DNA of 32,000 bases from Candidatus Lokiarchaeum ossiferum (GCA_025839675.1 CP104013.1:3270001-3302000); one strand, 5' to 3'; shown: positions 223-30,143, counted from the first letter of the stretch. Notes: generated by a model not told the origin, from the letters alone. Made by a program: numbers and translations.

Positions 223-247
223 GAATCATCTTTTGGTTTCTAAGAAA

Positions 248-395
248 CTATAAAAAGATCACGATTGTGACAGAATTGAGATTTGCGAGTGGTTTTTATA
301 GATCAAAAGCAGTAGTATGGATGTAACCATTTGAATACAAAAGGATGAAATGACAAAAGTGGCATTCAAACTTTAGTCCACATCTCTTTAAGACC
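248..395 (+). promoter_or_regulatory. Conserved upstream module, copy 1 (CTATAAAAAG TATA box, TCACGATTGTGA inverted repeat, second TATA-like TTTTTATAG, conserved leader) in front of giant gene 1
   Basis: About 90% identical over ~115 nt to 4158-4272 and alignable with 8151-8295. Starts 228 nt upstream of ATG 476, in the same orientation as the gene. Confidence 0.6.
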
Positions 396-475
396 TAAGG
401 ATAATTTTCAGAAAATGTATTCGAAACTGGAAACATGAAATTACTAATAACGCAAAACCAAAAAGTGAAAAAAAT

Positions 476-3400
476 ATGAAACCAAAAAAATTAATCTTCA
501 TCTTTTTTGTAGGAATCCTCATGGTCCCCATCTTCCCCCAAGCGCAACTTTCCTTCGCAAGTGCAACGGTGGGTCAAAGTAATGGAGTCTGGGAAATAAC
601 CTATAATACTGATGATAGTGCAAATGTTGGTCCACTCTATGATGCCAACGGATATACTGCAATTTCCGAGTTAGATCCTGCAAGTTCAACCAATACATGG
701 TACGATTATTCCCCATTAGAAGCAGGACATCAAGAATTAGACTTTGAATGCAATATCAAATTTGAAAATGGAGGTCGGAAACACATTTATCTGTATTTGG
801 ATAACGATCCCTCCCAATATTTCCTACTGCAATATGAAAATGGGGATGTGTTTTCATACACTACAGATAATTGGGTAAAACAAAGCCAAAATATGGATTA
901 TAGTTATAATACTTGGCTGTCGTTTCAGTTAGAACTGATTCAAACCAGCTCCACCACAAAATTATTAACCGTAACTTTAGGAACCGATTCTTTTTCGATC
1001 GAACTGGATAGTGACAGTACTGTTGACGCACTCAAAATGCGCACAATGACGGCCGGAAGTTCCGTCTTCTTTTCTGACGTCGAAGTGTCTTATTTGGAGG
1101 AATCCTGGCAAAGAATTTATCCTGCGGAAAGCTCTGCATCTGCAATACCCCTTAATGATGAAACGGACGATGGACAGCTGTATTCAGATATTTATGAATT
1201 GGAGATGGACGTGGGACTGAATACGTGGTATGAATATACCAAATCGGGAATTGAATACAATTTCTTGCATTTTGATTGCAATTTGAAATTTCTGGATGGA
1301 GGAGCTAGAAAATGGTATTTTTATTTTGATGATGGGGCTTATTTCATTATCAACTTCGAAAATCAATGGATCAGATCATATGTTTCGAATGCTGACGTGC
1401 CAAACTGGGTTTCTCAGAGGTCTTACGGCTATGGGGATTGGAATCATATCGAATTTGATATCGTTCAAAAGAATTCTGTAACGAAAGAATTAAAAATGAG
1501 CATAAATGGGCTCCCATTTACTTATCCTGTCCTTATGTCTAGTGGATTCAATGTGAAAATTGAATACTTAAGAGTGCGTCTTCAAACTAGCGGAAGTCTT
1601 TTGATTTCCGATATGGCAGTCGATAATGATCAGGATGGATTGGATGAGGTTGAGGAAGCTATGCTAGGGTCTGATCCTCTCCTTAAAGATACTGATGGCG
1701 ATTTTGCTTATGATGGGGAAGAAGCCTCTATCTATGGAACGGATCCAACGGTTCCCGATGAGGCAAATGGTTTTACACTGATCTATCCAGAAGGTGGTCC
1801 AGGCAGAGTTGATATTTCCACAGATTCATCTACCGGTTCAAAGATATATCAGCTAAATTCGGAAGGTTCATCTAATACTTGGTTTCAACATCGATTGAAT
1901 GGCCTAAGAGCTCAATCTGTCGGATTTCATTGTAAAATAAAAGTGCATGATTCTCAAGAAAAATACTTGTACTTCTATTTTGACGATGGTGATTATTTCA
2001 TAGTTCGATTTATTAATCTACATCTCTATACCACCTATATTCATAATGGGGTTGGCAACGGGTGGAGGGATCAGTATATTTATTATGGGGACCAGGATTG
2101 GTTGGATTTATCAATCACTATTACTGGAGGACCCAATATCAAAACATTAGATGGATCTTTAGATGGAAATCCCTTTGATGATTCCGAATTCATGTATTCG
2201 AAAGGTGTTTTTGACAAGCTTAAAACCCGCCAAACTGGAACGGATAATTTGTGGAGTTTCACGGAGTTTATGATTGATTCGGATTTGGATGAGTTATCTG
2301 ATGTAGAGGAACTTGATTTAGGCACCGACCCGACGGATGCGGATTCGGATGGGGATGGGTTAACCGATGGAGAAGAAGTCAATAATCATGGCACTAACCC
2401 TCTAGTGGCGGATTCGGATGGTGATAAATTTTCTGATCTCCTCGAAATTCGTGGGAAATTAAATCCTATGGATCCCAGCGATGTATTTACAGATGAATGC
2501 ACCCTTGGAGGTTATGTTCCAAGCGAATGGGTGATTCCAAGCTCAGATGTGGGCATCCAAGCAATACCAAATGATTGGGATGATACTAGTTATTTAAGCG
2601 ACAATTTTATGCTCTCTATCAGTCCCACATATCGGCACGATTCTCGCAGTATAGAAATTCCATTACAACAACTAGATGTCATGGAAAATTTTGCATTTTC
2701 ATGTTATGTTGGGCAAAATTGGTTAGGAGGTGAAGAATCATGGCAAATTTATATTAAAGATACTTCAGGAAAAGGTTTTGCTTTGAACTATAAAGGTGAT
2801 CAATTCTACATTAGTGATACTACACTTCTTTCTTTCAGCTCGGATATTATTCAAGTACCTAATCCAAATAAAATTATGCATGAAATGAGGATAACCTTAA
2901 AATTTGTTGGCGATCATACCGATATTTTCCTATATTTTGCAGATACTTCAATGGGTAACTACTCCATCGAGATGGGAAAAATGTTATCCAAAATCATTGT
3001 TACTCGAACAACGACTTTTAATACTCCTGAGATACCCTCCTTTGGATTTGATAATTTTAAAATAATCCAATGGAAATGGCCTTATTATAAATTGATGGAA
3101 ACTTATCCTTCTAATGAAGGGAGAGATGGGCATTTAACCATTAATAACGTCCAAAAAGGCGTTGGTAAAGGACCTGGGTTCTATGAAATAATGTCCTCTG
3201 TCGATTTTGATCGGAATTGGAATGATGATGGTTTGGAAGGGATGCACTTGGATGGTTCTTTTTGTGATACAGGTTCCTTCAATTTTGTTTCTCATGCAAA
3301 ATTATTTGATATATTCGGGACTGGAATTACCCAACCTCAATCAAGTATAACTAAAATGGAACTTGATTTAAAGATCAATGGTCCTGATGGTCCTATCGAT

Positions 3401-3961
3401 TTATCTACAGCAAATGGAATCAGTAATCTAATAGATCCATACTTAATTAACATGATTGAAAATTTGGACACTATTACAGATTTAAATGAGGTTACTGAAA
3501 TTCTTGAAGGAGTTGGGACACTCTACCAAGTAACAGAACAATTATTAGATATGTATGATACCGTACCTGAATCACTTCAAGATGTTTTGGGACCAATTTC
3601 CCTGGTTATGGATCTTGTGGGTTTTTATTCTGAGGAAAATACACCACATCCCGAGTGGACTTGTGATACATTAGATAATGATCCTTATACCTATCAAGTC
3701 AAATATGACTTTGATTTCGTATCTGGAGTTTCTTGGGGTAGTACAAATTTTGCTATGGGATTTAATTTAAATTTTTACGAAGTAATTGAACATCTTGAAG
3801 AAACAATGGATATTGGTGACAGATACACTTTTACGATAACTCAAAGAACATTCTTGACTGGGATTTCCTATAATTGGATCTTTGGAAGATGGGAAGAATC
3901 CACAGAAATTATGGTTGAAGATACTTTTAAATTTGAACTCACATCCACCGATTCTTTTTAG
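476..3961 (+). CDS. Giant secreted multidomain protein 1 (1161 aa): signal peptide, 4 ConA/LamG-like modules, two TSP3-like Ca-binding repeat blocks, ~290-aa C-terminal domain of unknown function
   Basis: Long uninterrupted ORF. The N-terminus MKPKKLIFIFFVGILMVPIFPQAQLSFASA looks like a signal peptide. Repeated ~170-190 aa beta-rich modules share NTW[YF]...F.C.[IL]KF..GG.[RK]K..Y.YFDDG.YF and end in D[ND][FIV]x[IV]. DxDxDG motifs are present (DNDQDGLDEVEE, DTDGDFAYDGEE, DADSDGDGLTDGEE, DSDGDKFSDLLE). Confidence 0.9.
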   Translation: MKPKKLIFIFFVGILMVPIFPQAQLSFASATVGQSNGVWEITYNTDDSANVGPLYDANGYTAISELDPASSTNTWYDYSPLEAGHQELDFECNIKFENGGRKHIYLYLDNDPSQYFLLQYENGDVFSYTTDNWVKQSQNMDYSYNTWLSFQLELIQTSSTTKLLTVTLGTDSFSIELDSDSTVDALKMRTMTAGSSVFFSDVEVSYLEESWQRIYPAESSASAIPLNDETDDGQLYSDIYELEMDVGLNTWYEYTKSGIEYNFLHFDCNLKFLDGGARKWYFYFDDGAYFIINFENQWIRSYVSNADVPNWVSQRSYGYGDWNHIEFDIVQKNSVTKELKMSINGLPFTYPVLMSSGFNVKIEYLRVRLQTSGSLLISDMAVDNDQDGLDEVEEAMLGSDPLLKDTDGDFAYDGEEASIYGTDPTVPDEANGFTLIYPEGGPGRVDISTDSSTGSKIYQLNSEGSSNTWFQHRLNGLRAQSVGFHCKIKVHDSQEKYLYFYFDDGDYFIVRFINLHLYTTYIHNGVGNGWRDQYIYYGDQDWLDLSITITGGPNIKTLDGSLDGNPFDDSEFMYSKGVFDKLKTRQTGTDNLWSFTEFMIDSDLDELSDVEELDLGTDPTDADSDGDGLTDGEEVNNHGTNPLVADSDGDKFSDLLEIRGKLNPMDPSDVFTDECTLGGYVPSEWVIPSSDVGIQAIPNDWDDTSYLSDNFMLSISPTYRHDSRSIEIPLQQLDVMENFAFSCYVGQNWLGGEESWQIYIKDTSGKGFALNYKGDQFYISDTTLLSFSSDIIQVPNPNKIMHEMRITLKFVGDHTDIFLYFADTSMGNYSIEMGKMLSKIIVTRTTTFNTPEIPSFGFDNFKIIQWKWPYYKLMETYPSNEGRDGHLTINNVQKGVGKGPGFYEIMSSVDFDRNWNDDGLEGMHLDGSFCDTGSFNFVSHAKLFDIFGTGITQPQSSITKMELDLKINGPDGPIDLSTANGISNLIDPYLINMIENLDTITDLNEVTEILEGVGTLYQVTEQLLDMYDTVPESLQDVLGPISLVMDLVGFYSEENTPHPEWTCDTLDNDPYTYQVKYDFDFVSGVSWGSTNFAMGFNLNFYEVIEHLEETMDIGDRYTFTITQRTFLTGISYNWIFGRWEESTEIMVEDTFKFELTSTDSF
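1628..1771 (+). repeat. TSP3-like Ca-binding repeat block 1 of giant protein 1 (within CDS)
   Basis: Translation DNDQDGLDEVEEAMLGSDPLLKDTDGDFAYDGEEASIYGTDPTVPDE shows the DxDxDGxxDxxE pattern of thrombospondin type-3 repeats. Confidence 0.7.
2276..2483 (+). repeat. TSP3-like Ca-binding repeat block 2 of giant protein 1 (within CDS)
   Basis: Translation DSDLDELSDVEELDLGTDPTDADSDGDGLTDGEEVNNHGTNPLVADSDGDKFSDLLE. Contains the GC-rich conserved DNA island at 2321-2359. Confidence 0.8.
2321..2359 (+). repeat. GC-rich conserved DNA island, copy A (GGCACCGACCCGACGGATGCGGATTCGGATGGGGATGGG)
   Basis: Differs at only ~4 positions from the identical 39-mers at 6500-6538 and 9653-9691. Uses CCG/ACG/GCG/TCG codons, which look rare elsewhere in this AT-rich window. 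Confidence 0.85.
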
Positions 3962-4010: not shown

Positions 4011-4157
4011 TTTTTGATAATATTTTCTTGATTTAAACGGAGAAAATATGAGTTATGAAATTTTGATGAAAATCAAGAAATTCTTTTCATTATGAAAACC
4101 CGAAAAATAAGAAGAAAAACATCTTTCCGAAACATCCATTGATATCTCATCAAGCAC

Positions 4158-4300
4158 CTATAAAAAGATCACGATTGTGATAGTTGTGCAAATTGCGAGT
4201 GGTTTTTATAGATCAAAAGCAGTATTATGGATGTAACCATTTGAATACAAAAGGATAAATGGACAAAAGTGAGAAACCGATTTTTGTTCCACATCTCCTT
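4158..4300 (+). promoter_or_regulatory. Conserved upstream module, copy 2, in front of giant gene 2
   Basis: CTATAAAAAGATCACGATTGTGA...GCGAGTGGTTTTTATAGATCAAAAGCAGTATTATGGATGTAACCATTTGAATACAAAAGGAT. About 90% identical to copy 1. Starts 212 nt upstream of ATG 4370. Confidence 0.6.
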
Positions 4301-4369
4301 AATAGTAATTTTTCAATATCCTTTTTGTATTCTACTTGAACAATATTTAAAAGAAAAAAGGTAAACATA

Positions 4370-7300
4370 ATGAATCAAAAAAAAAGACTGCTATCGTTAT
4401 ATGCGTTGCTTCTTTTGACCTGTTCCGCCTTAATATATACTAATATGGGAACTGGGGTCGCAGAAATCAATATTTCAGAATGGACAAATGTGCCAAATTA
4501 TGGTCCTTCGGAATTATCCAATTTCATGGATGAAGATCGAGGGGAGGTAATGAAAATATATGATGCCGGATGGGGATTAGTCCAAAAGGATATAATTCCG
4601 CAATATATTGCAGGAAACAAAATTTGGTATTCCTATTGCGTGAAAGTAACTGGTGGGGAATCGAATGATTATGGGGGGGTGAATTTAAGCCCATCTACCA
4701 TCAACACTGGGGCCGTAGGAATGCGAATTCATGCGGGAACGAGTTTAAAATATTGGCTTGGAGATGGACAAGAGCATGATACATTCATTGACGTAGAAAC
4801 AGATCAATGGTACCACATAGGATGTTCATATGAGTCTGATGGTCAATTCGAAGCATATTTGGATGGGGAGATGATCCTTTCAGAACAAGCCAAGCCTATC
4901 AGCAATTTAAATTATGTTTATGCTGCAACATGCTCCCAATCAACTTTTCTGGATGATATCTATGTTGGAGTTTCTAAGGATGAAGCATTTAATAGTTTCC
5001 AAGATGAAGTAACTACCATACTAATTGATGATTTTTCGGAAGATTCGATTGGGTTTTTACCCTTAGATTGGGAACTAACTGCAGGCGGATATTCATCTTT
5101 TAGAACTGTAGAACTAGCCGAATCTCCATATGATCAGGTTTTAAGAATCTATGATTATGGACAAATTCCCACCGTATACTCAAAAGTGGAAAAAAAAATT
5201 CCCGCTGGTTTTGGATCTATTGAATGGGATTTAAAAACAGATTCACCAGGAAATAATAATGGTTATTTCGGATTGATGGAAGGGGATAATTGGTTGATAT
5301 CGATTGGGATAATAAATAATCAATTCAGAGTTTATTACCACAATGATCATGCTTCGTATAGTGTCTACGACACAAACGTTGTTGCTTCAAATCAATGGAC
5401 CCACCTTAAAATGGAGTATGATGGCGAGCAAGATGATTGTCGAATATTTGTTAATGGGGTTGAGGTAAGAAGTACACCATTCAATACAAAATATGCCTCT
5501 TTTGTTGATGGTCTATATTTACACTCAGGAGAAACTGGATCTGGAAAAAGTTATTATGACAACATTCAAGTGAACTGGGTAAAACAGCGTGTGGATTCTT
5601 TTATGGAATATGCTGGCATTATCAATTTTGATGATAGTTACAATCAAGATCCTCTAGCAAGCTGTCAAGAATGGTCTTCCGATGTTAATTCGGGCTATCA
5701 AATCCTAGATGCAGTGACCACACACTCAAGTGTATTGGCAATAACCGATTTAGTTTCTTCTTCGAGCTGCTTTACAAAACTAAACATTAATACTCCTTTA
5801 GGGGTTGGAGGCTGTGTAGAAGGATGGATATCTGGATCGAGTATCATAAATAATGCGTATATGGGCATTAATTTTGGGGATAATTACTGGTTATTGTCCG
5901 TGGGGATCAATAATGGTCATTTTAAAGTTTATCATCGAACGAGCTATTCAACATATAGTACCGCTGTTTCTACCATAGAAGCAAATCCAAATCAATGGTA
6001 TTTTGTTTGTTTATATTATGATGGTATGTCTGATATTTGTACTGTATCGATAAATGGTGTTACTATTGGACAATATAGTCTTTATGACGTTGCTGGAATT
6101 ACATCAATATATCTCCATTCGGGAGAAAATGGGGGGGGTACAAGTTACTATGACTCAATTTCGTATGATTGGGCAAATGAATATGATGCAGGAGATGCAA
6201 GAATAATAGACTTCGATAGGGACCATTTAAGCCACAAGTATGAAGAGACCCATATTTATGAATCTGGATTAAAAACTTCTCCTTGGAAATGTGATTCTGA
6301 TAATGATAGGGTAAATGATTGGGATGAAATCTGTGGTATCTACGGATATATTACTGATCCAACTCGGATTGACTCTGAACCGATTGGATCTGAAGATGGG
6401 CTGAATGATTATTTAGAATTATTTAGATATCATACCGATCCAACTCACTATGATTCTGACCGTGATGGGCTGACTGATGGAGATGAAGTCAACTTATATG
6501 GCACCGACCCGACCACGGCGGATTCGGATGGGGATGGGTTGACCGATGGGGAAGAAATAAATGGGTATGATATGATGTATCTAGACGAGCTTTATCATGA
6601 ACATAAATATGCAACATATTATACAAATCCGCTTCTTGTTGATTCAGATAATGATAATTGGAGTGATAAGCAAGAACTTGATTTGATACAAGCTGATTTA
6701 GATCAAATTCATGAACCTAATCCTGCGGTAGATAACTATCGGTATTTAGATCCAATGTGCCGAGATAGTGATTTAGATTTTCTTCCCGATGGATGGGAAG
6801 AATATTATGGACTCGATCCTTGTGAATATAATTCAGAGCTGGAATTAATCGAAAACAATGTTCCTGATATATATTATTTCTTTGCGCCAATTCAAGAACC
6901 AGATCAAGAACGGGTCTCGGGATTGCGAATTGCCTTGATATTCATTAATCCAGACATAGTTTCGCCAAGTTGGGCAAATTATTACTCTCGAGTCTTCGAT
7001 AAGCTAAATTATGATGTAGTGCATGTTTATACAGGTTACACCCGAAATCAGTTTTATAATGAATTGTATCAGTGGACACCCCTTATTCAAGCGGATGATG
7101 AATTATTTATAATGATCCAAGGACATGGGCTGGTGGAGGACAATGAAGAAGAAACTCCGTTGGCGTATTTCACTCTTTATGATGACGATGAGGTGTTTGA
7201 CCAGGATGTTGGTGAAATTTCGGGACAAGAGTTTTTAAATCGATTGAAGTTATTTAGTGCCTACAGGAAATGTGTGTTTTTTGATACCTGTTTCGCTGGA

Positions 7301-7618
7301 AAAGTGCTTGAAAATTTCGATTCGGAAATAACTAAAGTCTTTCAAACTACTGATGCCACCCACGCACAGTATAGAACAGTCAGCAAATTTGATAAGATTA
7401 TGCAGAATGCTAAGTGGGAGAAAAGAAATACTTATGTTGCATCATTTTTCTGGGATACTTTAGGTGCAACCACTCTAAGTGAAGATCCAATTTTCAAATA
7501 TATTCAGGCGGATTTGGCATTTGGTTCTCTTTTACCGTGGAGTCGAACGGGTTATCAAGGAGGAACTATTTTGAATCCGGGCTGGAATTATTTGGAACGT
7601 TATAATATATTTGTCTAA
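4370..7618 (+). CDS. Giant secreted multidomain protein 2 (1082 aa): signal/anchor segment, 3 LamG-like modules, long TSP3-like repeat region, C-terminal caspase-like (clan CD) peptidase domain
   Basis: Long ORF with hydrophobic N-terminus LLSLYALLLLTCSALIYTNMGTGVA. LamG-type signatures: QWYHIGCSYESDGQFEAYLDGE, NQWTHLKMEYDGEQDDCRIFVNGVEV, NQWYFVCLYYDGMSDICTVSINGV. TSP3 motifs: DSDRDGLTDGDE, DSDGDGLTDGEE, DSDNDNWSDKQE. The C-terminus carries an H-G / D-x-C-x-x-G dyad. Confidence 0.9.
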   Translation: MNQKKRLLSLYALLLLTCSALIYTNMGTGVAEINISEWTNVPNYGPSELSNFMDEDRGEVMKIYDAGWGLVQKDIIPQYIAGNKIWYSYCVKVTGGESNDYGGVNLSPSTINTGAVGMRIHAGTSLKYWLGDGQEHDTFIDVETDQWYHIGCSYESDGQFEAYLDGEMILSEQAKPISNLNYVYAATCSQSTFLDDIYVGVSKDEAFNSFQDEVTTILIDDFSEDSIGFLPLDWELTAGGYSSFRTVELAESPYDQVLRIYDYGQIPTVYSKVEKKIPAGFGSIEWDLKTDSPGNNNGYFGLMEGDNWLISIGIINNQFRVYYHNDHASYSVYDTNVVASNQWTHLKMEYDGEQDDCRIFVNGVEVRSTPFNTKYASFVDGLYLHSGETGSGKSYYDNIQVNWVKQRVDSFMEYAGIINFDDSYNQDPLASCQEWSSDVNSGYQILDAVTTHSSVLAITDLVSSSSCFTKLNINTPLGVGGCVEGWISGSSIINNAYMGINFGDNYWLLSVGINNGHFKVYHRTSYSTYSTAVSTIEANPNQWYFVCLYYDGMSDICTVSINGVTIGQYSLYDVAGITSIYLHSGENGGGTSYYDSISYDWANEYDAGDARIIDFDRDHLSHKYEETHIYESGLKTSPWKCDSDNDRVNDWDEICGIYGYITDPTRIDSEPIGSEDGLNDYLELFRYHTDPTHYDSDRDGLTDGDEVNLYGTDPTTADSDGDGLTDGEEINGYDMMYLDELYHEHKYATYYTNPLLVDSDNDNWSDKQELDLIQADLDQIHEPNPAVDNYRYLDPMCRDSDLDFLPDGWEEYYGLDPCEYNSELELIENNVPDIYYFFAPIQEPDQERVSGLRIALIFINPDIVSPSWANYYSRVFDKLNYDVVHVYTGYTRNQFYNELYQWTPLIQADDELFIMIQGHGLVEDNEEETPLAYFTLYDDDEVFDQDVGEISGQEFLNRLKLFSAYRKCVFFDTCFAGKVLENFDSEITKVFQTTDATHAQYRTVSKFDKIMQNAKWEKRNTYVASFFWDTLGATTLSEDPIFKYIQADLAFGSLLPWSRTGYQGGTILNPGWNYLERYNIFV
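6290..6833 (+). repeat. TSP3-like Ca-binding repeat region of giant protein 2 (within CDS)
   Basis: Translation CDSDNDRVNDWDE...YDSDRDGLTDGDEVNLYGTDPTTADSDGDGLTDGEE...VDSDNDNWSDKQE...RDSDLDFLPDGWEE. Confidence 0.8.
6500..6538 (+). repeat. GC-rich conserved DNA island, copy B (GGCACCGACCCGACCACGGCGGATTCGGATGGGGATGGG)
   Basis: Read directly: 39/39 identical to 9653-9691, although the flanking codons and the rest of the two genes are highly diverged. Confidence 0.9.
6911..7420 (+). other. Caspase-hemoglobinase fold (peptidase clan CD: caspase/metacaspase/legumain-like) domain at the C-terminus of giant protein 2
   Basis: The order of elements fits the fold: RIALIFINPD (beta1), then ...VHVYTGYTRNQFYNEL..., then DELFIMIQGHG (His919, codon 7124-7126), then KCVFFDTCFAGK (Cys974, codon 7289-7291). 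The His-Gly and D-x-C-x-x-G motifs are ~55 residues apart, as in clan CD cysteine peptidases. Confidence 0.6.
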
Positions 7619-7628
7619 ATTTCGGGAT

Positions 7629-7659
7629 AGTGAGTAGTTTTGCTCTCACTTTTTTTTTA
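7629..7659 (+). terminator. Hairpin (AGTGAG...CTCACT) plus T9 tract after giant gene 2
   Basis: An inverted repeat at 7629-7634 / 7645-7650 is followed by TTTTTTTTT at 7650-7659. It overlaps the 3' end (KKK codons) of the convergent gene 7646-7984. Confidence 0.4.
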
Positions 7660-7984
7660 TTTCTTCTGCATTTAATGAATCCCCAAAAATGATTTCCTTA
7701 CGCTTTCTATCAACCAACCGCAAATTTCCCGTAAATAAGGGCATATGAAGCCACGTATTTAATAATTTTTCCCCTCCCAGTACATGATCCCATGATTTTA
7801 ATATTGTTCTTTCGTTTTTCGATATTTTCGCAAGGCACGAGCTACAAAAAAAAATAGGTAATGGATATGGAATGGAATTATTGGGTCTTTTTTCGGTTAC
7901 CGTAATAAATGGGGACATATCAGCACGCCACTGTTGACATATGTAACATAAGTTTTTGGAAGGTACTTTGTTTTTGGCCATCAA
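7646..7984 (-). CDS. Hypothetical small protein with two CxxC pairs (possible zinc ribbon)
   Basis: 112-codon ORF. CYIC...(35 aa)...CSSC suggests a Zn-binding knuckle pair. The first codon is TTG followed directly by ATG. No family recognised. Confidence 0.45.
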   Translation of the reverse strand: MMAKNKVPSKNLCYICQQWRADMSPFITVTEKRPNNSIPYPLPIFFCSSCLAKISKNERTILKSWDHVLGGEKLLNTWLHMPLFTGNLRLVDRKRKEIIFGDSLNAEEIKKK

Positions 7985-8054
7985 TGTTAGCTATGAAGGG
8001 CAGACTATTGAAATTTTTGGCGAACTTCTACTCCTTGGTCTTTCTGAAATTCAC

Positions 8055-8126: not shown

Positions 8127-8150
8127 GAATCGCCCTATGTTTTTGGGATG

Positions 8151-8295
8151 CTATAAAAAAAACTCGCTTGTGACAGAAGTGTAAATTTCGTGTGGTTTTT
8201 ATAGATCAAAGTCAATATTAAGCATGTAGCCATTTGAATGCAAAAGGATGAAATGACAAAACTGGAATTCAAGCTATCGTCTTTGCCTCTTCCAT
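8151..8295 (+). promoter_or_regulatory. Conserved upstream module, copy 3 (diverged), in front of giant gene 3
   Basis: CTATAAAAAAAACTCGCTTGTGACAG...GTGTGGTTTTTATAGATCAAAGTC...CATTTGAATGCAAAAGGATGAAATGACAAAACTGG aligns along its length with copies 1 and 2. Starts 200 nt upstream of ATG 8351. Confidence 0.55.
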
Positions 8296-8350
8296 TCCTC
8301 ACCTTGATTTTCTGCCAAAAGTTCTTCAATGGGATACAGTGTGATAAAAA

Positions 8351-11149
8351 ATGTTGGATAAAAATAAAAAAGGCAAGAAGAAATTGTCCTTGGGATCTAA
8401 AATCGGAATGTGCCTCTTCATTGTTGCGATGATCTCTACCAATAGCCCAAATCTGATAAAAAGCGCTTCAGCAATTTCCGTGAATGATTGGGAATTAAAT
8501 CCTGAATGGGAAGGGTGGGAAGAGGATTCTACTCTTGGAAATCAATATACACGCGTCGCTGAATATTCAGATTTAGGCTCACGAGATCCGGTGTTGGGAC
8601 TCCGCGATGGTTCCTATTATGGAGAAGCGAAAATAAAGAATGAATTTCCCAACCAACCTGCGGGGGCTTTTTCCACCGAATTGAAAATCGTTGAAACCTC
8701 TTATGGAAATGAGGATTGTTCTTTTATTCGATTTTATTCAGGAACAACAATTGCTGCTGCTTTAATTATTGATAATAATTTTAGATATGCTCCTGACCAA
8801 GGAGTATCCGATGCCCCTATAAGATCGATCAATGTGGAATTGGAGACGTGGTACCACTTTGCTGCTGAATGGAATAGTCAAGCAACTGGAACTAATGAGT
8901 GGACATTTTACATTAACGGTCAAATTATTGCTCAGTTCGATTCGACCAATCCGTTTTCAGGAATTAATAATATCACAATTAGTACATATCTTGGCGATAT
9001 AACTCATAATCTGACCTTACATAACCTACGACATATGGATGATTCTTCCACAATTAACCAAATTTGGGAAGAAGATAAATTTTTTGAATGGACTAGCGGT
9101 GGGACGAATCAATGGTGTCATATTTCGACTAACATTTTTGAAGATCGAAACGTGTTAAAACTAAACGATGGTTCATGGGTCGGGGAAGCAATCGCAACAG
9201 CGAACTTTGATTTATCCGAAAAGGGATCGTTTTCTACAAATATTCGAATTGTTGATTCTGGTTATGGAGAAACAGATTGTTTCCTAATTAGATTTCTCTC
9301 AGGATCGACTGTGAGCAGCTATATGACCATGTGGGAAGATCAAGGTGTAAATACGATCAGATTTTGTGGATCTGACGGCAATTCTTACCCCACAGGATCA
9401 ACATACTCTACTAATGTGTGGAATGATGATTTCAAAGCCGAATGGGATTGCTCAGGAAGTGGTAAAGACCAATGGGTTTTTTCTCTGGGAGGCACAGTAA
9501 TAAAGACATTTGAATCTGAAAAATACACTTCAGGAATTAATCAAATTTCGATTCGCTCTTTATATAGCAAACCAACCAATTATGTCTATTTTAATGATAT
9601 TCAAATCGATTCGGATGATGATGGTCTATCACGTAAAGAAGAATTGCTCTTTGGCACCGACCCGACCACGGCGGATTCGGATGGGGATGGGCGCGAGGAC
9701 GGGGTGGAGATTAGATATATGACAAATCCTATAATAAATGAAGTCTTTTGGGAAGATTTTGAAGAAATTTCTTTACCAAGTGGATATATTGATAATGGAG
9801 ATACTATCGGAGAGTGGCAAGTGGCTAAAGATAATGATGATTTTTGTGATCTATATGTCGATCAGAGTCCAAGCTATTGGGGAGAATCTTCTCAAGTTTT
9901 ATGGCTTCATACTACTGATGAAAGTCTCATTGATATTTATAAAAATGATATCGCTTCATCTGGAGATAATTTGGTTTATTTTCGCTCCTCTATTAGTATA
10001 GGACAGCTTCAGTATCAACAGTTTTATGTTGATTTTACCTATGGAACTTCTTCACGCTTGCATTTTCTGTTTTCTAGTGGAGAATTATTTTTCTGGGATT
10101 CCTATTATATATATGGGAAACACCTTACTGCTTATAAACCTGTATATGATGCAGCGAGCAATGTTGTTGTTTATAGTGAAGATCAAAAAATTGATTTCGA
10201 AGTATTCATTGATAAGGACCAATCCACTTGGACTCTGAAATGGAATGGACAAGCAATAATGAAGCAATATGATCTTGATTTTGGTAATACTTTTAATCGA
10301 GTGATTTTAGGCACACCATCAACATCTTCTGGACGAGTTTTTCTTGATGATCTCGTTTTTGAACATGGGAAAATCACTAAAGATGATTCGAAGACCTTAT
10401 ACAATAAAATAGTTCCGAATATAGTCGCCTGTTTACCTGGGTTCAATGAGGAATTCTCTGAAGATTCTATTGGCGATACTAGCCTTGTAGGATTAGAAAT
10501 ATCATCAATCGTTTCTCGAGATACTGAGTATTCCTTCAATTTTCCTTTTGTTTCAGTTAGTTATGATGATGAAATTGAAACGGGTCCACATCATGATGAG
10601 GTTCGAACAATTGGTCAAGAACATTGGTATTGGTACTATAAAATTTATGGAGATATTGAATTTTACTCAATCGACTTAACAGAGTATTCATATTCTGCTT
10701 CCTTTTTGGCATTTTATTCATTTGACCCATATTCAACTCAAAACACCGTACTTACCAATCATCCCTATTCAGATCTCCGCGATGATTGCTCGTATTTAAA
10801 TCAGGAAACATTTGATTATTGGGTCCAGCCATCATATACTTCTGAATACTCTTGTCCTCAACAATACACGGATTCTGGGAGTCAAACTCAAAAAGGATGG
10901 GATTACACCATTAGTAAACAAACCACATTAGGATTGAATTTTGAGTTATCCTTTGCCACACCAGTCCAATCAATTTCTCTTCCCCTTGGCATATCTTTTG
11001 CATTCAATGTTGAACGAGATTTAGATTTCTGGTACTATCTGATATTGAAAGATACCCATACTTCTACTAAATCAGTAACTTATAATATGAATGCCAATGT
11101 AGCTAAAGGTTTTTATACTTTTTTTATTAGTGATTTTAAGATTCACTAA
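8351..11149 (+). CDS. Giant secreted multidomain protein 3 (932 aa): signal/anchor segment, 2 tandem LamG-like modules, TSP3-like repeats, a third module, ~230-aa beta-rich C-terminal domain
   Basis: Long ORF with N-terminus KKKLSLGSKIGMCLFIVAMISTNSPNLIKSASA. Duplicated modules: (...GSYYGEAKIKNEF...GAFSTELKIVETSYGNEDCSFIRFYSG...) and (...GSWVGEAIATANF...GSFSTNIRIVDSGYGETDCFLIRFLSG...). TSP3 motif: DSDDDGLSRKEELLFGTDPTTADSDGDGREDGVE. Confidence 0.9.
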   Translation: MLDKNKKGKKKLSLGSKIGMCLFIVAMISTNSPNLIKSASAISVNDWELNPEWEGWEEDSTLGNQYTRVAEYSDLGSRDPVLGLRDGSYYGEAKIKNEFPNQPAGAFSTELKIVETSYGNEDCSFIRFYSGTTIAAALIIDNNFRYAPDQGVSDAPIRSINVELETWYHFAAEWNSQATGTNEWTFYINGQIIAQFDSTNPFSGINNITISTYLGDITHNLTLHNLRHMDDSSTINQIWEEDKFFEWTSGGTNQWCHISTNIFEDRNVLKLNDGSWVGEAIATANFDLSEKGSFSTNIRIVDSGYGETDCFLIRFLSGSTVSSYMTMWEDQGVNTIRFCGSDGNSYPTGSTYSTNVWNDDFKAEWDCSGSGKDQWVFSLGGTVIKTFESEKYTSGINQISIRSLYSKPTNYVYFNDIQIDSDDDGLSRKEELLFGTDPTTADSDGDGREDGVEIRYMTNPIINEVFWEDFEEISLPSGYIDNGDTIGEWQVAKDNDDFCDLYVDQSPSYWGESSQVLWLHTTDESLIDIYKNDIASSGDNLVYFRSSISIGQLQYQQFYVDFTYGTSSRLHFLFSSGELFFWDSYYIYGKHLTAYKPVYDAASNVVVYSEDQKIDFEVFIDKDQSTWTLKWNGQAIMKQYDLDFGNTFNRVILGTPSTSSGRVFLDDLVFEHGKITKDDSKTLYNKIVPNIVACLPGFNEEFSEDSIGDTSLVGLEISSIVSRDTEYSFNFPFVSVSYDDEIETGPHHDEVRTIGQEHWYWYYKIYGDIEFYSIDLTEYSYSASFLAFYSFDPYSTQNTVLTNHPYSDLRDDCSYLNQETFDYWVQPSYTSEYSCPQQYTDSGSQTQKGWDYTISKQTTLGLNFELSFATPVQSISLPLGISFAFNVERDLDFWYYLILKDTHTSTKSVTYNMNANVAKGFYTFFISDFKIH
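9608..9731 (+). repeat. TSP3-like Ca-binding repeats of giant protein 3 (within CDS)
   Basis: Translation DSDDDGLSRKEELLFGTDPTTADSDGDGREDGVEIRYMTNP. Confidence 0.8.
9653..9691 (+). repeat. GC-rich conserved DNA island, copy C
   Basis: 39/39 identical to 6500-6538. Confidence 0.9.
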
Positions 11150-13244: not shown

Positions 13245-13709
13245 ATGAAAGACAAACAAAATGTAGGAAATTCTGGAGAATATTATATTGCAGCTTTCCT
13301 TTCTGCACGAAATTTTATAGTAACCATCACCCTAGGAAGAGCTATTGGCTATGATTTATTAGCGGTCAATCCAAGCGGAAAGTTAATCAAAATATCTGTA
13401 AAAACTCGCGATTCAAACTCAACTCATAGATTTGTGTTATCAGAAAAATCTGAGTCATTAAAATCCGAGGATCTGTTCTATGCATTTGTTAGAACGAATA
13501 AATTTGAATCTCTACCCGATTTTTGGATGATTCCATCAAAAATTGTTGCTGAGCAAACATATAATAGCCATAAGAAATGGCTTCAAGAAGATAGCAATCA
13601 CAAGGATAATACAATGCGAACATTTTGGGTGAAAAATCATGATCTTTTCCCAAAGAATTGGGGAGAAACAATGGAGCAATATCATAATAGTTATTCTAGT
13701 TTGCTATAG
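13245..13709 (+). CDS. Putative PD-(D/E)xK-fold (restriction endonuclease-like / Hjc-YraN-like) nuclease, 154 aa
   Basis: The N-terminal pattern GEYYIAAFLSARNFIVTITLGRAIGYDLLAVNPSGKLIKISVKT matches the (G)E-helix, D-strand and [ESQ]xK-strand arrangement of PD-(D/E)xK nucleases. This is pattern recognition only. Confidence 0.5.
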   Translation: MKDKQNVGNSGEYYIAAFLSARNFIVTITLGRAIGYDLLAVNPSGKLIKISVKTRDSNSTHRFVLSEKSESLKSEDLFYAFVRTNKFESLPDFWMIPSKIVAEQTYNSHKKWLQEDSNHKDNTMRTFWVKNHDLFPKNWGETMEQYHNSYSSLL

Positions 13710-15504: not shown

Positions 15505-16299
15505 ATGAATAATATAATTCCTCAAGAACGAAATATTTTAATTGTACCAATTGGATTAGAAATAGACCGCGTAATTGCAGGATGCAAACTATATCCAATT
15601 AATGTTATATATCTCTTACATAATCCGCTTGTGGATTCAACCAAATTTGCAGTAGAACGATATTCAAGTTATTTTGCAAAAGAAGTTAAGAATAGGATAG
15701 GGAGTTCTTTCAATAAAATAGAAGAAGAAATTACAAATTTAGGTTCTTTTCATGATTCATTAACATGTTTGAACAGAATAATGAAATTGGAAGAAAAAAT
15801 AGAAAGATTGGGACATATCTACATAAATATATCGACAGCATCAAAAACCTTCGCAATGGCAGCTTATTTATTTGCAAGTAGAAAACCAGAACTTTTCACC
15901 TTATTCTATTTACAATCAAACAAATACATCCTACTAGAGCATTTTAATAAAGAAAATTCTTCTTTGGATAAACTGGAAGAAGAATTTAGAAAATCTGGTT
16001 TAACTCAAGGCGATTTTGAAGTAGAAGAAATTCCAATTTTGAAAACAGAATGGTTCAATAAAGAGGAAGCAGAAATTTTACGTATTTTCGATGGAAATAG
16101 ATCTTTTGATTCATTATTGGAGTTGATAGCTAATCTGAAACAGGAAAATAATCCAAAAAACAGAATGAAGATCAGAAGAATACTTAACAAATTTGAAGAT
16201 CTTGGAATCATTCAGATGAAAAAACGTGGAAAAAATTTAATTATAACTCCTACAAAAAAACACAGCAGTATTTCAAATATGACTGGAGTTTTTTACTAA
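15505..16299 (+). CDS. Putative transcriptional regulator: Csa3/CARF-like Rossmann N-domain (HFX_2341/DUF6293-like) plus C-terminal winged helix
   Basis: NILIVPIGLEIDRVIAG...IYINISTASKTFAMAAYLFAS resembles, from memory, the VHIVPVGFxYDRV / VNVSxxPRxxxFA motifs of that family. The C-terminus (ILRIF...SFDSLLELI...RRILNKFEDLGIIQMKKRGKNLIITPT) looks like a wHTH. An A/T-rich TATA-like stretch lies just upstream. Confidence 0.5.
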   Translation: MNNIIPQERNILIVPIGLEIDRVIAGCKLYPINVIYLLHNPLVDSTKFAVERYSSYFAKEVKNRIGSSFNKIEEEITNLGSFHDSLTCLNRIMKLEEKIERLGHIYINISTASKTFAMAAYLFASRKPELFTLFYLQSNKYILLEHFNKENSSLDKLEEEFRKSGLTQGDFEVEEIPILKTEWFNKEEAEILRIFDGNRSFDSLLELIANLKQENNPKNRMKIRRILNKFEDLGIIQMKKRGKNLIITPTKKHSSISNMTGVFY

Positions 16300-16584: not shown

Positions 16585-16693
16585 ATATTGAATGCCTACT
16601 CATAAAAAATAAAACCATAAATACTTCCTCAGCGAAGTAATCACATACTTTTTTGATGGAATAGATACTTAAGTATGACCCCATGGACCAATT
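16585..16693. repeat. Direct repeat, left copy (DR-L), flanking the giant gene 4 cassette
   Basis: ATATTGAATGCCTACTCATAAAAAATAAAACCATAAATACTTCC (44 nt identical), then ~85-90% identity up to ...AAGTATGAC..GACCAAT, when compared with 20717-20832. Confidence 0.85.
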
Positions 16694-20388: not shown

Positions 20389-20469
20389 TTTTGAGTTGTT
20401 TTCTATTCTTATCAAAATGTAGTCAACATATTTTTCTAAGATTCTTGCAAATTTTGAGAAAAAATATAC

Positions 20470-20602
20470 TTCTTTTAATCATGTAGGCTTCAAAAATTAG
20501 TGACTACTTTGCATTTTGGTTTTGAACATATATATTATAGAAAAAAATCTATTTAAACTCGGTGGTGTTAGCAAAACTGACACAATCATGATCTTTTTAT
20601 AG
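20470..20602 (-). promoter_or_regulatory. Conserved upstream module, copy 4 (second subtype), in front of giant gene 4
   Basis: The minus strand reads CTATAAAAAGATCATGATTGTGTCAGTTTTGCTAACACCACCGAGTTTAAATAGATTTTTTT...CAAAACCAAAATGCAAAG. The first 22 nt differ from copy 1 at one position. Starts 214 nt upstream of ATG 20388. Confidence 0.55.
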
Positions 20603-20716
20603 ATTCCTAGAACACAAAATACGCAAGAAGTTATATTACAAGATGAAAAAAATAGAAAATTTCATAGATATAATGGATGGAGAATGGAAAAATCGGTTTT
20701 AACGATTTTTTTTGAA

Positions 20717-20832
20717 ATATTGAATGCCTACTCATAAAAAATAAAACCATAAATACTTCCTTATCGAAGTAATCACATACATTTTTGATGGAAAAGTTAC
20801 TTAAGTATGACACCGTATGGTGGGTTGACCAA
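20717..20832. repeat. Direct repeat, right copy (DR-R); also the promoter/5' region of gene 20832-21155
   Basis: See DR-L. DR-R ends in GACCAATG, whose ATG is the start codon at 20832. DR-L ends in GACCAATT and has no gene after it. Confidence 0.85.
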
Positions 20833-26692: not shown

Positions 26693-26795
26693 TGTTCTCA
26701 CCTATTTTATTCTTGTTACTTGTTAAACGTATGAATTTTTATTTTTTCCCTTTACTAAAAATTTTTGAAACTGGGGAATATATTAATATTAAATC

Positions 26796-28845: not shown

Positions 28846-28949
28846 TTAATCCATTTTTTAAATATTTTTTCCACACAAAATATTAAGGGTTAGAATAAGT
28901 AAGGATCACTATAGATATTGAGACCAATTTAAATAAAAAAGTGGAAATT

Positions 28950-30104: not shown

Positions 30105-30143
30105 AAAAGTTTTTTTTTGTAAAATAATACGAGGTAAAAAATC

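What the first reader, a model, noticed from the sequence alone, without database searches (positions are those of the whole stretch)
6911..7420. Caspase-like (clan CD) peptidase domain fused to the C-terminus of a secreted LamG/TSP3 protein
Residues ~848-1017 of giant protein 2 show the ordered elements of the caspase-hemoglobinase fold. These are a hydrophobic beta1 (RIALIFINPD), FIMIQGHG (His919) and VFFDTCFAGK (Cys974) ~55 residues later. That is the catalytic His-Gly / x-C-x-x-G dyad of caspases, metacaspases, legumains, clostripain and gingipains. It sits directly after a long Ca-binding TSP3 array, on a protein with a signal peptide. That would make it an extracellular, possibly Ca-regulated protease tethered to lectin-like modules. 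I do not recognise this combination.
Basis: partly seen in the sequence, partly recalled or inferred. Interest (0 to 1): 0.65.

Follow-up and report, generated by a model that had tools for sequence, protein, structure and literature searches.

The report
Secreted caspase-like protease in Lokiarchaeum
The last 230 residues of a large secreted, lectin-like protein of the Asgard archaeon Lokiarchaeum ossiferum are a very divergent caspase/metacaspase-type cysteine protease domain with its catalytic His and Cys intact, most likely an extracellular protease tethered to binding modules; this is a new variant of a known kind, not a new kind of system.

Summary
ORF 4370-7618 (+) encodes a 1082-aa protein with a signal-peptide-like N-terminus, three LamG/ConA-like modules, a TSP3 calcium-repeat array and a C-terminal domain (res 853-1082). 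That domain carries RIALIFINPD, FIMIQGHG (His919) and VFFDTCFAGK (Cys974).

- Pfam and direct PDB sequence searches find nothing for the domain.
- NCBIfam gives a sub-threshold caspase hit.
- An exhaustive HMMER scan of 1.84 billion proteins finds three relatives: a 73%-identical truncated paralogue in the same genome and two distant caspase-domain proteins.
- hhalign against 118 genuine PF00656 proteins gives 94% probability (E 1.2e-7), with GHG and DxCxxG in register. Shuffled controls give 0.4% or less.
- An AlphaFold model (core pLDDT 76-86) matches MALT1 paracaspase, metacaspases and caspase-9/-8.

Asp972 at Cys-2 and the post-His hairpin point to the metacaspase/paracaspase/orthocaspase type, which cleaves after Arg/Lys. 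dN/dS of 0.18 between the paralogues shows purifying selection.

My best reading is an active extracellular Arg/Lys-directed cysteine endopeptidase on a lectin/Ca2+ scaffold, functionally like gingipains, in a peptide-fermenting syntrophic archaeon. Activity, specificity and Ca2+ control are inferred, not shown. Secreted prokaryotic caspase homologues are already known. What is new is the very divergent, lineage-restricted domain and the LamG-TSP3-caspase architecture.

The parts
4370..7618 (+). Gene for 'giant protein 2' (G2), 1082 aa: signal peptide, 3 LamG-like modules, TSP3 array, caspase-like domain
   Evidence: ORF list and translation; Pfam
4370..4462 (+). Signal-peptide-like N-terminus (residues 1-31: KKR n-region, 15-residue hydrophobic core, ...GVA|E)
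   Evidence: Read from the translation. The other three giant proteins have equivalent N-termini. No predictor was run.
4457..6205 (+). Three LamG / concanavalin-A-like jelly-roll modules (about residues 30-210, 211-405, 406-612)
   Evidence: PF13385 at 25.5, 35.3 and 30.7 bits on the separate segments; E 5e-19 on the whole protein
6209..6805 (+). TSP3-type calcium-binding repeat array (residues 614-812; D-x-D-x-D motifs at 614, 642, 695, 718, 758, 799)
   Evidence: PF18884 at 33.5 bits on the segment; motif positions
6926..7615 (+). Caspase-like (clan CD, C14B-like) domain, residues 853-1082: beta1 RIALIFI, His919-Gly920, acidic hairpin AYFTLYDDD, Asp972-x-Cys974-x-x-Gly977, beta5 KVFQTTDATH, C-terminal helices
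7124..7126 (+). Codon of predicted catalytic His919
   Evidence: Aligned with the His of GHG in 118 PF00656 proteins and yeast metacaspase
7283..7291 (+). Codons of Asp972-Thr973-Cys974: predicted catalytic Cys, plus the Cys-2 Asp that lines the S1 pocket in metacaspases
   Evidence: The D and C columns are invariant or nearly invariant in alignment A3. TbMCA2 Asp211 (Cys-2; the Cys213 numbering is from my own knowledge) is an S1 residue, and caspase-7 Gln184 occupies Cys-2 of Cys186 (PMC4357240).
4146..4319 (+). Conserved upstream (promoter/leader-like) element shared with the three other giant genes
   Evidence: Repeat family D1 and inverted pair I2; alignment; 26-mer found 3 times against 0 expected
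7646..7984 (-). Convergent 112-aa CxxC...CxxC ORF, duplicated together with the caspase-like domain
   Evidence: blastn/tblastx of window 6965-8027 against L001 3734-4793; dN/dS 0.32; no Pfam family

Best explanation
G2 is a secreted or surface-exposed multidomain protein of Candidatus Lokiarchaeum ossiferum. Its C-terminal 230 residues form a highly divergent caspase-hemoglobinase-fold (clan CD, family C14-like) cysteine peptidase domain of the metacaspase/paracaspase/orthocaspase type.

Shown:
- The domain is homologous to PF00656 domains.
- His919-Gly and Asp972-x-Cys974-x-x-Gly sit in the catalytic positions.
- The domain is under purifying selection.
- It follows three LamG-like modules and a TSP3 calcium-repeat array behind a signal-peptide-like N-terminus.

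Inferred:
- After Sec export, the LamG/TSP3 part binds glycan or protein ligands. These could be on the archaeon's own surface, on partner cells or on detrital protein.
- The tethered Cys-His dyad then cleaves polypeptides, most likely after Arg/Lys, because the S1-lining residue at Cys-2 is Asp as in metacaspases and MALT1.
- The acidic stretch between His and Cys (EDNEEE...YDDDEVFDQD) and the adjacent TSP3 array make Ca2+ dependence plausible.
- The likely role is generating peptides for this peptide/amino-acid-fermenting syntroph, or remodelling surface proteins at cell-cell contacts. This is a gingipain-like logic.

I put the fold and family assignment at about 0.9. The figure of 0.6 below is for the full statement, including extracellular catalytic activity.
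For: Homology:
- NCBIfam caspase model, E 1.3e-4 for the domain and 1.3e-5 for the paralogue.
- In a filter-only HMMER scan of 1.84e9 proteins, the only non-self hits are P0002 (two caspase domains, PF00656 E 7.7e-42) and P0003 (secreted; beta-rich N-terminal region plus C-terminal caspase/legumain-like domain).
- hhalign of window+paralogue against 118 PF00656 proteins: 94.1% probability, E 1.2e-7. Controls give 0.4% or less.
- A PF00656-only HMM hits only this ORF in the window, E 1.8e-6.
- The profile that includes these proteins reaches yeast metacaspase 4f6o, E 3.5e-5.

Fold:
- AF2 gives pTM 0.65, core pLDDT 76-86 and the canonical element order.
- Foldseek returns MALT1, AtMC4, Candida glabrata metacaspase and caspase-9/-8.

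Catalytic and S1 residues:
- H, G, D, C and G are conserved in all alignments.
- Cys-2 is an S1 determinant in caspase-7 (Gln184) and TbMCA2 (Asp211).

Selection:
- dN/dS is 0.175 over 219 codons between the two paralogues. The longest identical blocks lie around His, Cys and beta5.

Export and scaffold.

Physiology:
- L. ossiferum lives on anaerobic peptide/amino-acid degradation, and extracellular peptidases are expected in such Asgard isolates (bioRxiv 10.1101/2025.02.26.640444).
- Secreted prokaryotic caspase homologues are known (PMC3501461).
Against: - No curated family model is passed. Pfam finds nothing for the domain even at E<=10, and the NCBIfam score is 21.5 bits against a cut-off of 140.
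- Direct PDB sequence and profile searches find nothing.
- The structural evidence is partly circular. The AF2 alignment consisted of PF00656 proteins, and those proteins were retrieved with a profile that contained the query.
- The single-sequence model failed, with pLDDT 33.
- The region after Cys (residues 977-1019) is modelled with pLDDT below 50.
- The loop after beta1, which supplies S1 residues in metacaspases (TbMCA2 Cys92/Asp95), is about 8 residues shorter here. Specificity and even competence are therefore uncertain.
- There is no expression or activity data.
- The signal peptide was not checked with a predictor.
- Only two copies of the domain exist in all data searched, so conservation evidence is thin.
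Confidence: 0.6

Rival explanations
1. The domain acts in cis for autoprocessing or release. It cleaves G2 itself, for example in the linker after the TSP3 array or in the loop after Cys974, to mature or shed the lectin/TSP3 modules. It would not digest external substrates. This is how the clan CD CPD domains of MARTX and large clostridial toxins work, and how orthocaspase/gingipain self-maturation works.
For: - Clan CD domains inside large secreted proteins often work in cis (MARTX-CPD; PMC4357240).
- Basic residues lie in the linker before beta1 (QERVSGLR) and in the low-confidence loop after Cys.
- The intact dyad and purifying selection fit this reading as well.
Against: - There is no sequence or profile similarity to C80 CPD.
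- The best matches are trans-acting C14B enzymes.
- The domain is at the extreme C-terminus, so no cargo lies downstream to release.
- Self-cleavage and trans activity are not mutually exclusive.
Confidence: 0.15
2. The domain is a catalytically dead caspase-fold module used for binding or scaffolding, like pseudo-orthocaspases or the Raptor N-terminal caspase-like domain. The His/Cys would be retained by descent only.
For: - The domain is extremely divergent and fails all curated models.
- The L1 loop is shortened.
- The paralogue P0001 lacks beta1 altogether and still looks constrained.
- P0002's first caspase-like domain has Ser in place of Cys.
Against: - His-Gly, Asp-x-Cys and the Gly at Cys+3 are all conserved in both paralogues and in P0003.
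- Described pseudo-orthocaspases have lost the dyad (PMC6426788 abstract).
- The longest identical blocks lie around the dyad.
Confidence: 0.1
3. The domain is a transpeptidase or ligase in the manner of the C13 enzymes (legumain ligases, GPI8 transamidase). It would covalently attach or cross-link surface proteins rather than hydrolyse them.
For: - The nearest architecture-mate, P0003, has its only Pfam hit, a weak one, to Peptidase_C13 (E 0.011).
- Clan CD chemistry allows transpeptidation (established knowledge of GPI8 and plant legumains).
Against: - G2 itself has no C13 hit.
- Fold and profile matches are to C14B, not C13.
- No partner subunits or recognisable sorting signals are encoded nearby.
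Confidence: 0.05
4. The domain is an intracellular conflict or defence-system caspase effector of the EACC1-associated type, and the secretion signal is misread.
For: The only curated model with any hit is NF047832 'caspase, EACC1-associated type'.
Against: - The score is 21.5 bits against a cut-off of 140.
- There are no PADLOC hits.
- No NTPase or EACC1 partners are nearby.
- The domain sits behind a hydrophobic N-terminal signal, three LamG modules and a TSP3 array, all typical of extracellular proteins.
Confidence: 0.04
5. The similarity is a chance co-occurrence of short GHG and DxCxxG motifs in an unrelated fold.
For: The motifs are short. Pfam and direct PDB searches are silent.
Against: - hhalign gives 94% probability against 0.4% or less for 21 controls.
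- This is the only significant hit of the PF00656-only HMM in the window.
- The in-register alignment extends from beta1 to the C-terminal helices.
- The secondary-structure order matches the fold even in the single-sequence model.
Confidence: 0.03

Closest known systems
Prokaryotic caspase homologues (orthocaspases / bacterial metacaspases), MEROPS C14B, Pfam PF00656
   Same: - Order of secondary-structure elements.
- His-Gly and Asp-x-Cys-x-x-Gly in register.
- A hairpin of the 'YLLPxD' type after the His (here AYFTLYD).
- An 'F..L..L' helix and an 'ELxxY'-like helix in the p10-like part.
- Many members have N-terminal signal or TM segments and extracellular partner domains (PMC3501461).
   Different: - Fails the PF00656 model entirely.
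- About 23-25% identity to the nearest members.
- The loop after beta1 is about 8 residues shorter.
- Family-specific motifs are shared only with P0001/P0003 (C-x-AGK, T-[TS]-D-x-[TS]-H).
- None of the 120 listed PF00656 relatives shows a LamG domain in its precomputed Pfam list.
- Found in an Asgard archaeon.
MALT1 paracaspase and type I metacaspases (Yca1, TbMCA2, AtMC4)
   Same: - Best structural matches and, via profile A3, the best PDB sequence matches.
- Asp at Cys-2, as in TbMCA2 Asp211 and, from my own knowledge, MALT1 Asp462. This implies Arg/Lys at P1.
- An acidic segment after His, reminiscent of the metacaspase Ca2+ site.
   Different: - Those enzymes are intracellular signalling or death proteases.
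- TM-scores are only about 0.4.
- The S1 residues from the alpha1/L1 region are not recognisably conserved.
- There is no pro-domain, death domain or Ig domain.
Gingipains RgpA/Kgp (clan CD, family C25) of Porphyromonas gingivalis
   Same: - Functional logic: an extracellular Arg/Lys-specific clan CD cysteine protease that is stabilised by Ca2+.
- It is joined to non-catalytic adhesin beta-sandwich modules (own knowledge) in an anaerobic peptide fermenter. P. gingivalis is listed as a peptidotroph in 10.1101/2025.02.26.640444.
   Different: - No detectable sequence or profile relationship to C25.
- The domain order is reversed: in gingipains the catalytic domain is N-terminal to the adhesins.
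- There is no type IX secretion C-terminal domain.
P0001 = NEF87_002771 (UYP46486.1), Ca. L. ossiferum; UniRef name 'Caspase family protein'
   Same: 73% identical over 219 residues, with identical dyad environment. It is in the same genome and was duplicated together with the downstream CxxC ORF.
   Different: It is a stand-alone 222-aa ORF with no signal peptide, LamG or TSP3. It lacks the beta1 strand, and the upstream ORF is unrelated.

Membership tests
Peptidase family C14 (Pfam PF00656 Caspase domain) | Scores above the Pfam gathering threshold for PF00656 | tested here: not met
   No PF00656 hit for the domain or the whole protein even at E<=10. None for paralogue P0001 at E<=1.
Peptidase family C14 (Pfam PF00656 Caspase domain) | Significant profile-level homology to genuine family members, with the catalytic motifs in register | tested here: met
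   - hhalign: 94.1% probability, E 1.2e-7, GHG aligned with GHG and DTCFAG with DTCYSG.
- Controls give 0.4% or less.
- PF00656-only HMM: E 1.8e-6, the only hit in the window.
- phmmer hits to P0002/P0003: E 1.7e-4 and 8.1e-4 in 1.84e9 proteins.
Clan CD (caspase-hemoglobinase fold) | Catalytic His (followed by Gly) after beta3 and catalytic Cys after beta4, in that order, about 40-60 residues apart | tested here: met
   His919-Gly920 and Cys974 are 55 residues apart. They lie on modelled strands E69-81 and E124-134 of the domain. They align with the dyad of PF00656 proteins and yeast metacaspase.
Clan CD (caspase-hemoglobinase fold) | Alpha/beta sandwich with the order beta1-alpha1-beta2-alpha2-beta3-alpha3-beta4-...-beta5/6, and structural similarity to solved clan CD enzymes | tested here: inconclusive
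   The AF2 model (pTM 0.65, core pLDDT 76-86) matches MALT1, metacaspases and caspase-9/-8 at E 7e-6 to 1e-3 with TM about 0.4. However, the alignment given to AF2 consisted of PF00656 proteins, the p10-like part has low confidence, and the single-sequence model failed.
Clan CD (caspase-hemoglobinase fold) | His and Cys side chains adjacent in three dimensions | not testable with these tools
   Model coordinates are not exposed. Only DSSP strings and Foldseek matches are returned.
Metacaspase/paracaspase/orthocaspase branch (C14B) | Acidic S1 pocket: Asp at Cys-2 plus acidic residues from alpha1/L1 and L5, giving Arg/Lys specificity | tested here: inconclusive
   Asp972 at Cys-2 is present, and that column is invariant. 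It is equivalent to TbMCA2 Asp211. The L1 segment that carries TbMCA2 Cys92/Asp95 is shortened by about 8 residues. D862 and D995 are only candidate substitutes.
Metacaspase/paracaspase/orthocaspase branch (C14B) | Cysteine endopeptidase activity, with Ca2+ dependence in many metacaspases | not testable with these tools
   Requires biochemistry.
NCBIfam NF047832 caspase, EACC1-associated type | Score above the curated cut-off (140 bits) and association with an EACC1/NTPase conflict system | tested here: not met
   Scores of 21.5 bits (domain) and 24.8 bits (P0001). No PADLOC hits. No such neighbours.
Other clan CD families (C11 clostripain, C13 legumain, C25 gingipain, C80 CPD, C50 separase) | Pfam, PDB-sequence or fold match to the family | tested here: not met
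   No Pfam hit. No PDB sequence hit. The Foldseek top 50 holds C14 enzymes plus two unrelated glycosyltransferases, and none of these families. Only the distant relative P0003 has a weak C13 hit, E 0.011.
LamG/ConA-like + bacterial TSP3 secreted proteins | Pfam PF13385 and PF18884 matches behind an N-terminal signal sequence | tested here: met
   PF13385 matches three times (E 5e-19 overall) and PF18884 scores 33.5 bits. The signal peptide was judged from the sequence only.

The most novel reading that the evidence does not exclude
G2 is one member of a co-regulated, strain-variable set of giant Lokiarchaeum surface proteins. They share a promoter/leader element and a jelly-roll + TSP3 scaffold but carry different orphan C-terminal 'effector' domains. 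G2's effector is a lineage-specific, Ca2+-gated extracellular caspase-like protease. It would act on the surfaces of syntrophic partner cells, or on the archaeon's own protrusion proteins, during cell-cell contact. That would make it an Asgard-specific contact-dependent proteolytic system rather than a simple feeding enzyme.
Probability: 0.15. Interest if true: 0.65.

Novelty: new variant of a known kind. Interest (0 to 1): 0.42.

Why it matters
Caspase-fold proteases of eukaryotes are usually traced to bacteria, and archaeal examples are few. This window provides a caspase-fold domain with an intact dyad, under purifying selection, in a cultured Asgard archaeon. It is placed outside the cell on a lectin/Ca2+-repeat scaffold.

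If the domain is active, it would be a candidate for two roles. One is how a peptide-fermenting syntroph obtains peptides. The other is how it remodels contacts with its partners. Either would extend clan CD by a very divergent subfamily that the curated Pfam and NCBIfam models used here miss.

It does not bear directly on the origin of eukaryotic caspases. Its nearest relatives are bacterial-type domains, and it appears confined to one species.

Tried and rejected
- Pfam on the isolated domain and on the whole protein: no clan CD family.
- PADLOC: nothing.
- phmmer and profile searches of PDB sequences with the domain, A1 and A6: nothing relevant.
- Single-sequence AlphaFold: unusable, pLDDT 33.
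- Word-indexed searches of 5.8e9 proteins with the domain and with A1 returned only the paralogue.
- Scans of GTDB genome contigs (A1) and JGI metagenome contigs (A6) gave pattern matches, but none was confirmed.
- Exact look-ups of G2 (two alternative starts) and G3 in the assembly index: not on record, although neighbouring window proteins are. I take this to be masking of the target rather than biology.
- I checked whether the L. ossiferum paralogue hides an upstream beta1 through a frameshift. All three frames upstream of L001:3719 lack it.
- I checked whether G1, G3 and G4 carry the same C-terminal domain. They do not: only TSP3 and weak jelly-roll similarity are shared, and their C-terminal 460-500 residues have no Pfam family.
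- Rfam on the whole window: no family.
- Literature searches for Asgard + orthocaspase and for Lokiarchaeum + LamG/TSP3 found nothing specific.
- Some tool calls failed for technical reasons and were repeated.

Full report
**1. What is in the sequence**

The window has a 1082-codon ORF at 4370-7618 on the + strand.
- RIALIFINPD at residues 853-862.
- FIMIQGHG at 913-920, with His919.
- VFFDTCFAGK at 969-978, with Cys974, 55 residues after the His.

The domain actually continues to the stop codon.

The upstream architecture is also as described:
- Three Laminin_G_3 (ConA-like) modules score 25.5, 35.3 and 30.7 bits when scanned separately, and E 5e-19 together.
- A TSP3_bac array scores 33.5 bits and has six D-x-D-x-D motifs between residues 614 and 803.
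- The N-terminus (KKR, then a 15-residue hydrophobic core, then GVA|E) reads as a Sec signal peptide. I could not run a predictor.

**2. Where the window comes from**

The window is therefore from this cultured Asgard archaeon. G2 and G3 themselves are not retrievable from the protein or assembly indices. I attribute this to masking.

**3. Is the C-terminal domain a caspase-fold domain?**

Standard annotation fails:
- Pfam has no hit for the domain even at E<=10.
- PDB sequence searches are empty.
- PADLOC is empty.
- The only curated model that responds is NCBIfam NF047832 'caspase, EACC1-associated type'. It scores 21.5 bits (E 1.3e-4) for the domain and 24.8 bits (E 1.3e-5) for the paralogue, far below the 140-bit cut-off.

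More sensitive tests agree with each other.

(a) An exhaustive HMMER scan of 1.84 billion representative proteins returned just three proteins:
- P0001 (E 1.9e-103).
- P0002 (E 1.7e-4). This is a 706-aa protein with two caspase domains (PF00656 E 7.7e-42), and both align with the query's GHG...DxC segment.
- P0003 (E 8.1e-4). This is a 408-aa secreted protein with a beta-rich N-terminal part and a C-terminal caspase/legumain-like domain carrying 'GAHG' and 'DACQAGK'.

(b) A profile made only of the window domain and P0001 was aligned by hhalign to a profile of 118 PF00656 proteins.
- The result was 94.1% probability, E 1.2e-7, matching FIMIQGHGLV to IFFAGHGLAS and VFFDTCFAG to TMFFDTCYSG.
- One reversed and 20 column-shuffled versions of the query profile gave probabilities of 0.4% or less and scores of 18 or less, against 59 for the real profile.

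(c) An HMM built only from those 118 PF00656 proteins was run against all 104 stop-to-stop ORFs of the window. It hit only G2 residues 894-978 (E 1.8e-6; next best 0.72).

(d) The multiple alignment is in register well beyond the dyad:
- beta1 (ALIF).
- The 'YLLPxD'-type hairpin after the His (AYFTLYD).
- The invariant Asp at Cys-2 and Gly at Cys+3.
- beta5 (KVFQTTDA).
- The two C-terminal helices (ASFFWDTLG; PIFKYIQADL).

(e) AlphaFold2 with that alignment gave pTM 0.65 and pLDDT 76-86 for the core.
- The element order was beta1-alpha1-beta2-alpha2-beta3(His)-hairpin-alpha3-beta4(Cys).
- Foldseek against the PDB returned MALT1 paracaspase (E 7e-6), Arabidopsis metacaspase 4, Candida glabrata metacaspase and caspase-9/-8.
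- The profile containing these sequences also reaches yeast metacaspase Yca1 by sequence, E 3.5e-5.

Caveats:
- The PF00656 set was retrieved with a profile that included the query.
- The AF2 alignment was made of caspases, so (e) is not independent.
- TM-scores are only about 0.4.
- Residues 977-1019 are poorly modelled.

Taken together, I regard homology to family C14 (clan CD) as established at about 0.9. The domain is a far outlier that no curated model used here recognises.

**4. Which kind of caspase homologue, and what it probably does**

The hairpin after His-Gly, the structural ranking (MALT1 and metacaspases above caspases) and the Asp at Cys-2 put it with the metacaspase/paracaspase/orthocaspase (C14B) type.

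Position Cys-2 is an S1 specificity residue. It is Gln184 in caspase-7 (Asp at P1) and Asp211 in TbMCA2 (Arg/Lys at P1) (PMC4357240). Asp972 therefore predicts cleavage after basic residues.

The prediction is weakened because the loop after beta1, which supplies further S1 residues in TbMCA2 (Cys92, Asp95), is about 8 residues shorter here. D862, D995 and H998 are only candidates for the rest of the pocket.

The segment between His and Cys is strongly acidic (EDNEEE...YDDDEVFDQD), as in Ca2+-dependent metacaspases, and it follows a TSP3 Ca2+ array. Ca2+ control is plausible but untested.

**5. Is the domain functional?**

The domain has exactly one close relative, P0001 (NEF87_002771), in the same genome.
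- It is 73% identical in protein and nucleotide sequence.
- dS is about 1.2 and dN/dS is 0.175 over 219 codons.
- The longest identical blocks lie around His, Cys and beta5.

That is purifying selection on the coding sequence, which argues against a decaying or purely structural relic.

P0001 is a 222-aa stand-alone ORF without signal peptide, LamG or TSP3. It also lacks beta1, and none of the three frames upstream encodes it.

The duplicated DNA segment (window 6965-8027 against L001 3734-4793) begins inside the domain. It also includes a convergent 112-aa CxxC...CxxC ORF, which has dN/dS 0.32.

**6. Context**

G2 is one of four giant secreted jelly-roll/TSP3 proteins in the window:
- G1, 476-3961 (+).
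- G2, 4370-7618 (+).
- G3, 8351-11149 (+).
- G4, 16789-20415 (-).

They share only TSP3 repeats and weak jelly-roll similarity. Each ends in a different 460-500-residue region with no Pfam family.

All four are preceded by a conserved element of about 170 nt with two TATA-like boxes (CTATAAAAAGATCACGATTGTGACAG ... TTTTTATAGATC). Its 71-83% nucleotide identity is higher than that of the coding regions. Copies also occur at the P0001 locus.

A second Lokiarchaeum genome (CP163304.1) is 99% identical to the window from position 20715 onward. Over the 6.7 kb of that genome held upstream of the junction, it shares only two short segments with window 1-20714, and it has an unrelated 1107-aa gene where G4 lies. 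A 98-nt direct repeat flanks G4. The giant genes therefore appear to sit in a strain-variable island.

L. ossiferum lives by syntrophic degradation of peptides and amino acids, and extracellular peptidases are a hallmark of such Asgard isolates (bioRxiv 10.1101/2025.02.26.640444).

**7. Best explanation and rivals**

Best explanation (0.6): an exported, lectin-tethered, probably Arg/Lys-specific and possibly Ca2+-dependent cysteine endopeptidase. It would act on external proteins for peptide supply and/or surface remodelling. This is the same logic as gingipains, although it is unrelated to C25 in sequence.

Rivals:
- cis-autoprocessing domain (0.15).
- Inactive binding module (0.1).
- Transpeptidase (0.05).
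- Intracellular conflict-system caspase (0.04).
- Chance motifs (0.03).

Their evidence and refutation tests are given in the structured fields.

**8. Novelty**

Prokaryotic caspase homologues with signal peptides and extracellular partner domains were catalogued in 2012 (PMC3501461). UniRef already labels the paralogue 'Caspase family protein'. Clan CD proteases joined to adhesin modules are known from gingipains.

Three things are new here:
- The extreme divergence and narrow distribution of the domain: two copies in one species among about 15 billion proteins, plus one distant metagenomic relative.
- The LamG x3 - TSP3 - caspase architecture.
- The Asgard host.

I class it as a new variant of a known kind, with moderate interest (0.42).

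Noticed in passing
window 236-409, 4146-4319, 8139-8312 (+) and 20572-20619 (-); also L001 2609-2699 and 7919-8044: A conserved element of about 170 nt precedes all four giant secreted-protein genes. It has two TATA-like boxes and the core CTATAAAAAGATCACGATTGTGACAG, at 71-83% nucleotide identity. It is better conserved than the genes themselves and recurs at the paralogue locus. It is probably a shared archaeal promoter/leader of a surface-protein regulon. There is no Rfam match.
   Followed up: partly
window 6965-8027 versus L001 3734-4793; small ORF at window 7646-7984 (-): A segmental duplication within the L. ossiferum genome (73% nt identity) covers the caspase-like domain minus beta1, plus a convergent 112-aa CxxC...CxxC (zinc-ribbon-like) ORF. 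The small ORF has dN/dS 0.32 and no Pfam family. Whether it is functionally linked to the protease domain, for example as a regulator or inhibitor, is unknown.
   Followed up: partly
L001 3719-4387 (P0001, NEF87_002771): The only close homologue of the domain is a stand-alone 222-aa ORF. It starts at TTG, lacks the central beta1 strand and any signal peptide, and follows an unrelated 250-aa ORF. Even so, the pair shows dN/dS 0.175. How a caspase fold without beta1 could be functional is unexplained.
   Followed up: partly
window 1-20714 versus L004 (CP163304.1:3560611-3581918): A second Lokiarchaeum genome is 99% identical from window 20715 onward. Within the 6.7 kb of it held upstream of the junction, it shares only two short segments with window 1-20714. 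It carries an unrelated 1107-aa gene without a signal peptide where G4 lies. The giant-protein genes therefore appear to lie in a strain-variable island. A 98-nt direct repeat (16585-16682 and 20717-20814, 94% identical) flanks G4.
   Followed up: partly
window 2453-3958 (+), 9761-11146 (+), 16792-18198 (-): The C-terminal 460-500 residues of G1, G3 and G4 have no Pfam family and are unrelated to each other and to the caspase-like domain. These orphan C-terminal domains sit on a common jelly-roll/TSP3 scaffold, a 'variable C-terminal effector' layout.
   Followed up: partly
L005 126-1352 (P0003, Logan SRR34261176): This 408-aa metagenomic protein has a signal peptide, a beta-rich N-terminal part and a C-terminal caspase/legumain-like domain. 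It shares family-specific motifs with G2 (C-x-AGK; T-[ST]-D-x-[ST]-H). It is a miniature of the G2 design and the only intermediate between G2 and ordinary PF00656 proteins.
   Followed up: partly
window 25355-26701 (-), 23977-25284 (+), 28941-30941 (+): Neighbouring genes include a MIT-domain plus TPR protein (MIT is an ESCRT-associated domain), a weak Peptidase_C69-like protein, and a VWA gene followed by an FHA gene. In the sister strain a Ser/Thr kinase gene lies further downstream of the FHA gene, after three genes without Pfam hits. None has an evident link to G2.
   Followed up: no
window 13245-13709 (+), 15505-16299 (+): A PD-(D/E)XK endonuclease-like ORF and an HFX_2341_N-family ORF lie between G3 and G4, inside the strain-variable stretch. 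They could be remnants of a mobile or defence element.
   Followed up: no
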